Positions 54,627 through 55,442 of a stretch of 64,000 nucleotides of DNA are shown piece after piece. Position 1 is the stretch's first letter. Each line of letters starts with the position of its first letter. The notes beneath the pieces were generated by a model. That model saw nothing but the letters and a program-made list of their open reading frames with translations, had not been told where the DNA came from and made no database searches. The stretch lies in the NCBI RefSeq assembly GCF_045037415.1, contig NZ_CP173438.1; one strand, given 5' to 3'. The stretch comes from Escherichia coli. GTDB lineage: Bacteria > Pseudomonadota > Gammaproteobacteria > Enterobacterales > Enterobacteriaceae. The translations under genes and the position numbers were made by a program.

Positions 54627-55442
54627 ATGAGCAGACATGCAACAGATTGGGCTTGGGAGACAGATCCAGGTAGCTCATCATTAAAGCTCATACTGCTCTC
54701 GATGGCTGACAGAGCCGATGAATATAACCTCTGCTACCCCAGCATAGAACGCCTCGTTAAAGACACTTGCCTGAATAAAAAAACCGTGCAGGCCGGGCTT
54801 ATATCGCTCATGAAAATGGGGATTATTTCAGATACCGGAGAGAGAAAGGGAGCGACAAAAAGAGTGCGGGTTTTCTCTCTTAATATAACCAAAAACGGGA
54901 ACATTAAAGGCAACCGGGAGGGGGGCAATGAACCCGAAAACGGGAATATACCCGAAAACGGGAATATACCCAAAAACGGGATGTTGAATGATCCCAAAAA
55001 CGGGATGTTGAATGATCCCAAAAACGGGATCCAGAACCAGTCATATAACCAGTCATTTAACCAAGAGAGGGAGAGCAGGACAAAAAGCGGGGATTCTGTG
55101 CCTCATGACCCCGGAGCAAACAACGCCGTGATGAATAACTTTGTTCCTCCTGGTGGGCCAGGGCAATTAGGCAAATTTGTCATGCATGAACAATGGCAGC
55201 CATCAGATGACTTTCTTCGGAAAAGCTCATTGCAGGGGATCTACCTGGACAGTCTGCCAACGGCACAGGAACTTGCAGAGTTCAGAATTTACTGGATGGC
55301 TGAGGGTAAGGCATACCATCAGGCACAGTGGGAGCAGAAGCTGGCAAGGCGGCTGCAGATTAGCAGACAGAAGCAATCAACATTACCTGATAACAACGTT
55401 CCGCACTGGAACAGCCCTGAAGCATGGGAGGATTTCTTGTGA
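54627..55442 (+). CDS. replication initiator (lambda O-like: N-terminal HTH, C-terminal DnaT-like domain)
   Basis: 271 aa; N-terminal winged-HTH-like region; internal low-complexity linker encoded by iterons; immediately followed by a lambda P homologue. Confidence 0.7.
   Translation: MSRHATDWAWETDPGSSSLKLILLSMADRADEYNLCYPSIERLVKDTCLNKKTVQAGLISLMKMGIISDTGERKGATKRVRVFSLNITKNGNIKGNREGGNEPENGNIPENGNIPKNGMLNDPKNGMLNDPKNGIQNQSYNQSFNQERESRTKSGDSVPHDPGANNAVMNNFVPPGGPGQLGKFVMHEQWQPSDDFLRKSSLQGIYLDSLPTAQELAEFRIYWMAEGKAYHQAQWEQKLARRLQISRQKQSTLPDNNVPHWNSPEAWEDFL
54933..55030. repeat. iteron array (putative prophage replication origin) inside the O-like gene
   Basis: direct repeats CCCGAAAACGGGAATATA x2 (54933-54968), CCCAAAAACGGGATGTTGAATGAT x2 (54969-55016), CCCAAAAACGGGAT (55017-55030); core CCC(G/A)AAAACGGG is near-palindromic. 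Confidence 0.75.

What the first reader, a model, noticed from the sequence alone, without database searches (positions are those of the whole stretch)
54933..55030. Iteron-type origin embedded in the O-like replication gene
Five direct repeats with the near-palindromic core CCC(G/A)AAAACGGG lie inside the initiator gene and encode the low-complexity peptide NGNIPENGNIPKNGMLNDPKNG, the same gene-within-origin arrangement as ori-lambda. This defines the likely origin and initiator specificity of the prophage.
Basis: seen in the sequence. Interest (0 to 1): 0.45.

Follow-up and report, generated by a model that had tools for sequence, protein, structure and literature searches.

The report
Lambda-style replication origin inside initiator gene
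A phiV10-like prophage of E. coli carries what is very probably its replication origin, a row of repeated protein-binding sites, inside the gene for its own replication initiator, as phage lambda does; this is an expected arrangement that nobody has annotated for this phage group.

Summary
CCCRAAAACGGG occurs five times exactly (54933-55028), plus one 1-mismatch copy at 54888. It occurs nowhere else in the 64 kb, where 0.84 matches are expected by chance.

The repeats lie in gene 54627-55442. This gene encodes an N-terminal winged-helix domain (HTH_36), a predicted disordered linker, and a C-terminal DnaT-like ssDNA-binding domain. A lambda-P-family gene follows it. The region is 97-99% identical to phage phiV10 (Uetakevirus).

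- In distant relatives the same DNA motif sits in all three reading frames (PKNG, TQKR, PKTG), sometimes within one protein.
- The proline codon in the motif is CCC in 20 of 20 cases, against 20 of 122 elsewhere in the same genes.
- The flanks co-vary so as to keep dyad symmetry.
- The array is absent when the N-terminal domain is swapped (Tyrion, TL-2011b).
- Copy number varies from 4 to 9 in whole units among 83 close relatives.

Two departures from lambda:
- The initiator is not in lambda O's Pfam family.
- The segment after the iterons is only weakly AT-rich (63% against 77%) and consists of conserved 12-bp repeats.

Verdict: a new member of a known kind. Origin function is inferred, not shown.

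The parts
54627..55442 (+). Replication initiator gene (271 aa). It has an N-terminal winged-helix origin-binding domain (aa 1-89), a predicted disordered linker (aa 90-178) whose coding DNA holds the origin, and a C-terminal DnaT-like ssDNA-binding domain (aa 179-252).
   Evidence: ORF. Pfam gives HTH_36 at residues 18-67 (E 2e-10) and DnaT at 184-252 (E 1e-15). PDB DnaT chains 9zbt, 6aep and 4ou6 match at E about 1e-20. The AF2 model has pLDDT above 80 for residues 1-89 and 179-252 and about 29 for 90-178. Foldseek matches the 4ou6 DnaT-ssDNA complex with TM 0.90-0.93.
54888..54899 (+). Degenerate outlying iteron ACCAAAAACGGG, 45 bp upstream of the main array, inside a locally less stable (67-70% A+T) stretch.
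   Evidence: stability profile. It is present in phiV10 and in all close relatives examined.
54933..55028 (+). Main iteron array: five exact copies of CCCRAAAACGGG at 54933, 54951, 54969, 54993 and 55017 (spacings 18, 18, 24, 24 bp). These are the predicted binding sites for dimers of the initiator's N-terminal domain.
   Evidence: DNA-level conservation. Copy-number variation.
55029..55070 (+). Candidate DNA-unwinding element: 12-bp repeats AACCAGTCATAT / AACCAGTCATTT / AACCAAGAG immediately right of the last iteron. It is 63% A+T with a strong A-over-T strand bias.
   Evidence: TRF, composition, stability. The same 10-mer AACCAGTCAT recurs in Vibrio phage Her with 13/12-bp spacing in two reading frames, and analogous 11-13-bp (G)AACC/AATC repeats follow the last iteron in most lineages.
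55424..56224 (+). Lambda-P-family helicase-loader gene. The listed ORF starts at 55424 and overlaps the end of the initiator gene. By coordinate offset, the start annotated in a 100%-identical E. coli genome corresponds to 55439.
   Evidence: Pfam Phage_lambda_P, E 1.5e-56, covering the whole profile. Annotated 'replication protein P' in RefSeq genomes.
53291..54611 (.). Upstream control region through which rightward transcription would reach the origin. It contains a divergent repressor-like HTH gene (53291-53875, minus strand), a 76-aa ORF (54030-54260), a terminator-like hairpin (54282-54301) and a 66-aa ORF (54411-54611).
   Evidence: The phiV10 record annotates the same layout, including the terminator. 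That it belongs to origin control is inferred from lambda.

Best explanation
This is the replication origin of a phiV10-like (Uetakevirus) temperate prophage. It is built like ori-lambda and lies in the part of the initiator gene that codes for a flexible linker.

Proposed mechanism:
1. Dimers of the initiator's N-terminal winged-helix domain bind the five to six dyad-symmetric iterons (core CCC-A-tract-GGG, with lineage-specific symmetric flanks). Together they form a bent nucleoprotein complex like lambda's O-some.
2. This complex destabilises the adjoining 12-bp-repeat segment (55029-55070).
3. The several C-terminal DnaT-like domains brought together by the array hold the exposed single strand and/or dock the lambda-P-like protein carrying host DnaB.
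4. DnaB is thereby loaded.

Shown here: the repeats, their position, the domain content, the DNA-level conservation and the co-inheritance with the N-terminal domain. Inferred: binding, unwinding, helicase loading and the role of the 12-mers.
For: - Repeats far above chance and unique to this spot: 6 matches against 0.84 expected, with none elsewhere in 64 kb.
- Gene context: a winged-helix plus DnaT-like initiator followed by a lambda-P-family gene, downstream of a repressor/cro-like control region.
- Direct comparison with the annotated lambda origin. [quoted passage not shown] The window iteron has the same CCC / A-tract+C / GGG layout with a 6-bp rather than 9-bp centre. Published footprints put lambda O's contacts on the distal G residues of the G-tracts (PMC7466680).
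- Natural chimera: the GF-2 initiator is this N-domain plus iterons joined to the lambda-O C-terminal half (62% identity, E 2e-67).
- DNA-level selection:
  - The motif is found in three reading frames in relatives chosen by protein homology; 8 of 10 distant phage homologues carry it just after the winged helix.
  - In 120 loci found by DNA pattern it is often in 2-3 frames within one ORF. 79 of the 120 ORFs match the N-domain profile, and others belong to the lambda O family, Phage_rep_O.
  - The Pro codon in P[KE]xG is CCC in 20 of 20 cases across 8 lineages, against 20 of 122 elsewhere in the same genes.
  - Flank bases at +-1 and +-2 are complementary in 52% and 55% of distinct iterons, against 33% and 26% in shuffles (0 of 1000 shuffles reach the observed values).
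- The array is lost together with the N-domain in Tyrion and TL-2011b, while the DnaT-like domain and the P gene stay.
- Unit-wise, in-frame copy-number variation (4-9 copies, mode 6) among 83 close relatives, as between lambda (4) and Stx phages (6).
- The whole origin lies in a predicted disordered linker.
- The DnaT C-terminal domain forms filaments on ssDNA (PMC13377028).
Against: - No experimental evidence of origin activity for phiV10 or any relative was found. No paper in the searched library contains the iteron sequence.
- The segment right of the iterons is only 63% A+T and 1.6 sd below the gene's mean duplex stability, much weaker than lambda's. An equally soft stretch lies left of the array (54857-54906), so the side of unwinding is uncertain.
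- The initiator is not a member of lambda O's Pfam family, and BLASTP to lambda O is not significant.
- The loci were selected by the DNA motif, so the motif's presence there is by construction. Only its frames, its gene context and the extra copies are informative.
- Iterons within one array are not independent, so the Fisher test and the shuffle test overstate significance.
Confidence: 0.8

Rival explanations
1. The iterons are real binding sites for the initiator, but their main role is control rather than initiation: autoregulation of the O-P transcript, titration or handcuffing of initiator as in iteron plasmids, or exclusion of related phages. The true start site would then lie elsewhere.
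For: - The DNA-level conservation and co-inheritance with the N-domain show binding-site selection, not initiation as such.
- The adjacent unwinding element is weak.
- Extra iterons beyond the minimum are common (4-9 copies). In Stx phages the two extra iterons are bound only weakly.
Against: - In lambda and P22 the homologous position is the annotated origin.
- A conserved set of 11-13-bp repeats follows the last iteron in nearly all lineages, which fits an origin better than an operator.
- No other iteron copies exist in the 64 kb, so there is no second site to serve as the origin proper.
- Control and initiation roles are not exclusive.
Confidence: 0.08
2. The repeats are only a low-complexity, slippage-prone protein linker (N/G/P-rich) with no function as DNA.
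For: - The region is predicted to be disordered.
- It varies in length by whole units among close relatives.
- It is rich in Asn, Gly and Pro.
Against: - The same 11-12-bp DNA word is kept across Escherichia, Edwardsiella, Vibrio and Acinetobacter phages and an uncultured wastewater-sludge (EBPR) podovirus, while the peptide it encodes switches between PKNG, TQKR and PKTG, sometimes inside one protein.
- The Pro codon is always CCC.
- The flanks keep dyad symmetry.
- Similar arrays occur in DNA without a long ORF (L123).
Confidence: 0.03
3. The repeats are bound by some other factor, such as a host protein or another phage protein (for example the small zinc-ribbon-like ORF upstream), not by the product of the gene that contains them.
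For: - Binding by the N-domain was not tested.
- The same core occurs with two different Pfam families of N-domain, HTH_36 and Phage_rep_O. A shared third factor could explain this.
- Three GATC sites sit in the last two iterons.
Against: - The array is lost when the N-domain is exchanged, although the upstream small genes are retained at 81-97% identity.
- Both N-domain families are winged-helix domains, and lambda O of the second family is known to bind such iterons.
- The lineage-specific symmetric flanks fit co-evolving phage-specific dimers rather than one conserved host factor.
- No DnaA box with up to 1 mismatch occurs within 54200-55800.
Confidence: 0.05

Closest known systems
ori-lambda with the lambda O and P genes (also Stx phages 933W and P27)
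   Same: - The origin lies inside the initiator gene, between the N- and C-terminal domains.
- Tandem dyad-symmetric iterons have the layout CCC / A-tract+C / GGG.
- A repeat-containing, less stable segment lies on the promoter-distal side.
- The next gene is of the lambda P family.
- Iteron number varies between relatives.

   Different: - The N-domain is Pfam HTH_36, not Phage_rep_O, and there is no significant BLASTP match.
- The iteron centre is 6 bp instead of 9.
- There are 5+1 copies at 18/24-bp spacing instead of 4 at 20-24 bp.
- The following segment is 63% rather than 77% A+T and is made of AACCAGTCAT 12-mers.
- The C-domain is DnaT-like instead of the lambda-O C-terminus.
Phage P22 origin in gene 18
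   Same: The annotated origin lies inside the initiator gene, with iterons followed by an A-rich repeat segment. The first bases after the last iteron (AATCAGTCAAAC) resemble AACCAGTCATAT.
   Different: - Gene 18 is of the Phage_rep_O family.
- Its iterons are TCGGTAAAAC-type.
- The partner is a DnaB-like helicase (gene 12), not a P-like loader.
DopC/DopE of Cellvibrionales and Oceanospirillales (Brezellec et al. 2017, PMC5509034)
   Same: The same two-gene architecture: HTH_36 plus a DnaT C-terminal motif, followed by a lambda-P-family protein.
   Different: DopC is chromosomal and domesticated, and is reported to lack iterons and origin activity. The window gene is in a prophage and carries a full iteron array, so it looks like the ancestral phage form. 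No direct sequence comparison with DopC was made here.
Iteron plasmid origins with winged-helix Rep proteins (RK2 TrfA, pPS10 RepA, F RepE, R6K pi)
   Same: Tandem initiator-binding repeats next to an unwinding element that itself contains short repeats, with a winged-helix initiator. The initiator is proposed to hold both dsDNA and ssDNA (PMC10602881 and PMC4980987, listed).
   Different: - Plasmid iterons are usually 17-22 bp direct repeats outside the rep gene.
- They are bound by monomers with two winged-helix domains.
- DnaA boxes are usually present, and none is found here.
E. coli DnaT (replication-restart primosome)
   Same: The C-terminal domain aligns to DnaT residues 85-170 (E 7e-21), and the model matches the DnaT-ssDNA crystal structure 4ou6 at 51-55% identity and TM 0.9.
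   Different: DnaT is targeted by PriA/PriB to abandoned forks. Here the domain is fused to a sequence-specific origin-binding domain.

Membership tests
Lambda-type phage origin (origin inside the initiator gene) | Tandem initiator-binding repeats located within the coding sequence of the initiator, between its DNA-binding and partner-binding domains | tested here: met
   The array at 54888-55028 corresponds to codons 88-134, between HTH_36 (18-67) and the DnaT-like domain (184-252). Lambda has the same position.
Lambda-type phage origin (origin inside the initiator gene) | Each iteron is an inverted repeat (dyad), with at least four copies spaced about two helical turns apart | tested here: met
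   The dyads are CCCG-AAAA-CGGG and GATCCC-AAAAAC-GGGATC. There are 5 exact copies plus 1 degenerate copy, spaced 18 and 24 bp apart. The arms are shorter than lambda's.
Lambda-type phage origin (origin inside the initiator gene) | A strongly AT-rich unwinding segment directly following the iterons | tested here: inconclusive
   55037-55066 is 63% A+T and 1.6 sd less stable than the gene mean; lambda's segment is 77% and 2.4 sd. The segment is a conserved set of 12-bp repeats, which may substitute for AT-richness.
Lambda-type phage origin (origin inside the initiator gene) | A helicase-loader gene of the lambda P family immediately downstream | tested here: met
   PF06992, E 1.5e-56, full profile coverage.
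Lambda-type phage origin (origin inside the initiator gene) | The repeats are conserved as DNA, independently of the peptide they encode | tested here: met
   The motif occurs in three frames. The CCC codon is used 20 of 20 times, against 20 of 122 elsewhere. The flanks show dyad co-variation.
Lambda-type phage origin (origin inside the initiator gene) | The initiator binds the iterons and the fragment supports replication in cis | not testable with these tools
   This needs a gel-shift or footprint and a replication assay. No published data were found.
Lambda O protein family (Pfam Phage_rep_O, PF04492) | The N-terminal domain matches the Phage_rep_O profile | tested here: not met
   The window protein hits only HTH_36 and DnaT at E up to 0.01, whereas lambda O and P22 gp18 hit Phage_rep_O at 6e-36 and 7e-38. 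BLASTP between the window protein and lambda O gives E 0.075.
Lambda O protein family (Pfam Phage_rep_O, PF04492) | A C-terminal P-interacting domain of the lambda-O type | tested here: not met
   The C-terminus is DnaT-like. By contrast, GF-2's initiator has the lambda-O C-terminus.
HTH_36 + DnaT_C initiator architecture (DopC-like) | An N-terminal HTH_36 and a C-terminal DnaT ssDNA-binding domain, adjacent to a P-family gene | tested here: met
   The architecture is described for DopC in PMC5509034.
Iteron-plasmid origin | DnaA boxes and a Rep protein with two winged-helix domains | tested here: not met
   No DnaA box with up to 1 mismatch occurs in 54200-55800. The model shows a single winged-helix domain.

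The most novel reading that the evidence does not exclude
Two linked readings go beyond 'another lambda-like origin'.

(a) One iteron core, CCC-(A4-5)C-GGG, is shared by initiator genes of two Pfam families (HTH_36 and Phage_rep_O, including lambda itself in a longer form). It is found in phages of Escherichia, Edwardsiella, Vibrio and Acinetobacter and in uncultured viral contigs, with specificity apparently carried by symmetric flanks and spacing. That would be an ancient, portable recognition code, and it raises the possibility of cross-talk between co-resident prophages.

(b) In the phiV10 type, the iteron array serves to gather several DnaT-like domains next to a repeat-built unwinding element, where they filament on single-stranded DNA. 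A phage initiator would then work like DnaA (duplex recognition plus an ssDNA filament), and it would be the ancestral form of bacterial DopC.
Probability: 0.3. Interest if true: 0.6.

Novelty: new member of a known kind. Interest (0 to 1): 0.35.

Why it matters
- It gives a concrete, testable origin (about 54880-55070) and a predicted initiator-site pair for the phiV10 group. This gene is present in 423 of 5426 complete E. coli genomes, where it is annotated only as a 'DnaT-like ssDNA-binding domain-containing protein' with no origin feature.
- It shows that repeat peptides such as PKNG, TQKR and PKTG in phage initiators are by-products of DNA sites. This helps annotation and warns against reading them as protein motifs.
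- It supplies the phage form, with iterons, of the HTH_36 + DnaT_C + P architecture previously discussed for domesticated DopC/DopE.
- Because the DnaT C-terminal domain is now known to filament on ssDNA, this initiator offers a simple system for testing the proposed DnaT/DnaA parallel.
- The finding itself is what a phage biologist would expect.

Tried and rejected
- Searching viral contigs with an alignment of five N-domains returned the same close relatives as the single-sequence search. It added almost nothing (five further close relatives and no distant ones). Distant relatives came instead from a tblastn of the phage collection and from a DNA-pattern scan.
- The repeat finder on the TL-2011b and Tyrion initiator genes found no comparable iteron array. 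What serves as the origin in those variants was left open.
- PDB sequence search with lambda O found nothing, so the N-domain could not be compared with a solved lambda O structure. Foldseek placed it only among generic winged-helix proteins, at E about 0.04-0.1.
- The promoter/terminator scan of 53200-56400 gave no more sites than shuffles. The two 'terminators' inside the array are just the iteron dyads.
- Literature searches for the iteron sequence, for a phiV10/epsilon15 origin, and for iterons with DnaT-like phage initiators found no description.
- A peptide-only repeat was considered and rejected (see the rival explanations).
- DnaA-box-dependent origin organisation was considered and rejected.

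Full report
**1. The observation**

The sequence at 54880-55070 contains CCCRAAAACGGG exactly at 54933, 54951, 54969, 54993 and 55017. A one-mismatch copy (ACCAAAAACGGG) lies at 54888. A search of the whole 64-kb window, both strands, with up to one mismatch finds only these six. Dinucleotide-preserving shuffles give 0.84 matches on average, and none of 100 reached six.

Tandem Repeats Finder splits the array into an 18-bp unit (x2.8) and a 24-bp unit (x2.6, 100% matches). It adds a third repeat, AACCAGTCATAT x2.4, at 55035-55063. All six copies are preceded by AAT(A/G)(A/T)(A/T). The first two full copies are the dyad CCCG-AAAA-CGGG. The last two are (G)ATCCC-AAAAAC-GGGAT(C).

**2. Where it sits**

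The 271-aa product has a Pfam HTH_36 winged-helix domain (residues 18-67) and a DnaT DNA-binding domain (184-252). The next gene (55424-56224) is a full-length member of the lambda P family. The C-terminal part aligns to E. coli and Salmonella DnaT chains in the PDB at E about 1e-20.

An AlphaFold2 model built from a 16-sequence alignment is confident for residues 1-89 and 179-252. It has pLDDT of about 29 for residues 90-178. The C-domain superposes on the DnaT-ssDNA crystal structure 4ou6 with TM 0.90-0.93. The N-domain resembles generic winged-helix DNA binders only weakly. Both the iterons (codons 88-134) and the 12-mers (codons 136-146) therefore lie in DNA that codes for a predicted disordered linker.

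The region is 97-99% identical to phage phiV10 and its relatives (genus Uetakevirus, the epsilon15 group). The gene occurs in 423 of 5426 complete E. coli genomes. There it is annotated as 'DnaT-like ssDNA-binding domain-containing protein' with no origin feature. In E. coli strain 4/0 the prophage lies next to guaA.

**3. Is the repeat a DNA element or a peptide repeat?**

Several independent lines point to DNA.

- **Reading frames in relatives found by protein homology.** I took ten distant homologues of the N-domain from the phage collection by tblastn. Eight of them carry CCC-RAAAnn-GG motifs just after the winged helix, and the frame differs.
  - GF-2 and PPompW have ACCCAAAAACGGG read as T-Q-K-R.
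  - Vibrio phage Her has it read as D-P-K-T.
  - EPP-1 and EBPR podovirus 1 mix frames within one protein.
- **Reading frames in loci found by DNA pattern.** The arrays mostly fall inside long initiator-like ORFs. 79 of the 120 ORFs match a profile of the window's N-domain, and others belong to lambda O's own family, Phage_rep_O. Many carry further copies in two or three frames within one ORF, for example NTPKNGIDQYSQKRESILPKTGVNTPKNG in L103. The motif's presence is by construction in this second set; the frames and gene context are not.
- **Synonymous positions.** In the protein-selected set, the proline codon of P[KE]xG is CCC in 20 of 20 cases across eight lineages, including AT-rich Acinetobacter phages. 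Elsewhere in the same genes it is CCC in 20 of 122 cases.
- **Flank symmetry.** Among 92 distinct iterons with the exact core, the bases at +-1 and +-2 are complementary in 52% and 55%, against 33% and 26% in shuffles (0 of 1000 shuffles reach the observed values). The commonest types are GTCCC..GGGAC, ATCCC..GGGAT, TACCC..GGGTA, TTCCC..GGGAA and CACCC..GGGTG. Symmetric flank co-variation is what binding by symmetric dimers with lineage-specific specificity predicts.
- **Arrays outside genes.** In a few contigs similar arrays lie in DNA without a long ORF (L123).

These tests are not phylogenetically corrected. Copies within one array are not independent, so the p-values are indicative only.

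**4. Link to the initiator's N-domain**

Enterobacter phage Tyrion and E. coli phage TL-2011b have syntenic replication modules. Their upstream genes and P gene are 80-97% identical to the window at DNA level. Their initiators have an unrelated N-terminal domain joined to the same DnaT-like C-domain, and they lack the CCCRAAAACGGG array.

Conversely, the N-domain plus array is found joined to at least four different C-terminal domains. The most telling case is Edwardsiella phage GF-2. Its initiator has the window-type N-domain and iterons, followed by a C-terminal half that is 62% identical to lambda O residues 156-299. This is a natural version of the classical lambdoid hybrid initiators. It places the window's N-domain plus iteron module in the role of lambda's.

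**5. Comparison with lambda and P22, done on the sequences**

The lambda record annotates four iterons (ATCCCTCAAAACGAGGGA and variants) at 39034-39118, in the middle of O, followed by the A+T-rich segment.

The window iteron has the same layout, CCC / A-tract+C / GGG, with a 6-bp centre instead of 9. Published footprints place lambda O's contacts on the distal G residues of the G-tracts, with bending at the centre (PMC7466680). This matches the invariant CCC/GGG and central A-tract seen here. P22's annotated origin inside gene 18 has a different iteron (TCGGTAAAAC-type).

The main departure concerns the unwinding element. In lambda, the 30-bp windows after the iterons are 77% A+T and 2.4 sd less stable than the O-gene mean. 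In the window, 55037-55066 is 63% A+T and 1.6 sd less stable. A comparably soft stretch lies to the left of the array at 54857-54906.

The right-hand segment is nevertheless conserved as a repeat element.
- AACCAGTCAT occurs twice in the window (12-bp period).
- It occurs three times in phiV10.
- It occurs twice in Vibrio phage Her with 13/12-bp spacing, and therefore in two frames (N-Q-S and E-P-V).
- Two to four 11-13-bp repeats beginning (G)AACC or AATC follow the last iteron in most lineages. The lambda-O-type lineages instead have ACAAAAGA-type repeats, as lambda and P22 do.

I read these as the functional counterpart of the 13-mers of other origins. This is an inference.

**6. Variation**

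Among 83 close relatives from IMG/VR, the number of copies with up to one mismatch ranges from 4 to 9 (mode 6, as in the window). Changes are always by whole 18- or 24-bp units, which keeps the frame. In most relatives the first two full copies are imperfect (CCCGAAAACGGT and ACCGAAAACGGG). In the window they are identical, which suggests recent homogenisation. Lambda (4 iterons) and Stx phages (6) differ in the same way.

**7. Mechanism proposed**

1. Dimers of the N-terminal winged helix bind the iterons and bend the DNA.
2. The adjoining repeat segment opens.
3. The clustered DnaT-like domains capture single-stranded DNA and/or dock the P-like protein bound to host DnaB.
4. DnaB is loaded.

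The DnaT C-terminal domain forms a helical filament on ssDNA, and its authors draw a parallel with DnaA (PMC13377028). An initiator that fuses a sequence-specific duplex binder to that domain would realise the parallel directly. Transcriptional activation from the upstream early promoter, as in lambda, is plausible from the gene layout but untested. No DnaA box lies within 54200-55800.

**8. Known or new**

The arrangement is the textbook lambdoid one, so the kind is known. For this phage group I found no annotation or paper describing the origin. The GenBank and RefSeq records examined carry no origin feature, and no paper in the library contains the iteron sequence.

The HTH_36 + DnaT C-terminus + P architecture has been described for the domesticated bacterial pair DopC/DopE, where iterons were reported absent (PMC5509034). 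The window shows the phage form with iterons. This suggests that the DnaT-like domain predates domestication. I did not compare DopC sequences directly.

The wide sharing of one iteron core across two initiator families is the most interesting by-product, but it was not tested with phylogenetic controls.

**9. Verdict**

It is a new member of a known kind and of modest interest. Origin function remains a strong inference, about 0.8, pending the assays listed under next steps.

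Noticed in passing
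window 54990, 55014, 55028: Three GATC (Dam) sites lie within 40 bp, inside the last two iterons; the last iteron is GATCCCAAAAACGGGATC. The window average is about 4 per kb. This might couple origin use to methylation or SeqA, as discussed for Stx-phage origins.
   Followed up: no
window 55035-55063, and L005 1966-2000: The 10-mer AACCAGTCAT is repeated right after the iterons in both the E. coli prophage and Vibrio phage Her. The spacing differs (12 bp against 13/12 bp), so the reading frames differ. This looks like a second DNA-level conserved origin element.
   Followed up: partly
window 54627-56224, versus DopC/DopE in PMC5509034: The gene pair has the same architecture as bacterial DopC/DopE (HTH_36 + DnaT C-terminus, then a lambda-P-like protein), but with iterons, which DopC is reported to lack. 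The DnaT-like domain therefore probably predates domestication.
   Followed up: partly
L123 7860-7950 (IMGVR_UViG_2684622683_000014); also L161 and L206: The same iteron core occurs in both orientations in a stretch with no ORF of 60 aa or more and no obvious adjacent HTH_36 initiator gene. This may be an origin of another element type.
   Followed up: partly
L199 1-570: A contig end is made of at least nine motif copies in 21-bp units (peptide GHNDPKTGHNVLIT...). This is a greatly expanded array.
   Followed up: no
L103, L112 and L157 groups (viral contigs): Initiators of lambda O's own Pfam family (Phage_rep_O) carry CCCRAAAACGGG-type iterons with 21-22-bp spacing, so successive copies fall in different frames (PKTG / SQKR / PKNG). 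They are followed by lambda-like AAACTATTACAAAAG repeats.
   Followed up: partly
window 54411-54611: A 66-aa ORF just upstream of the initiator gene has a CxxGH...CxxC pattern (zinc-ribbon-like) and no Pfam match. It is conserved in phiV10 (gp42) and is noted in that record as similar to epsilon15 p40.
   Followed up: no
window 54353-55694 versus L221; window 54581-55396 versus L002: There are sharp mosaic breakpoints. TL-2011b replaces the region from upstream of the initiator gene to inside the P gene, and Tyrion replaces the initiator's N-domain and linker. The flanks remain 80-97% identical.
   Followed up: partly
window 56692-57300: A 202-aa ORF with weak zinc-finger and HNH-endonuclease matches sits where phiV10 and E. 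coli 4/0 carry other genes. This is a variable moron-like slot downstream of the replication genes.
   Followed up: no
window 54857-54906: The least stable 30-bp windows of the initiator gene (67-70% A+T) lie to the left of the main array and include the degenerate sixth iteron. Unwinding on this side cannot be excluded.
   Followed up: partly
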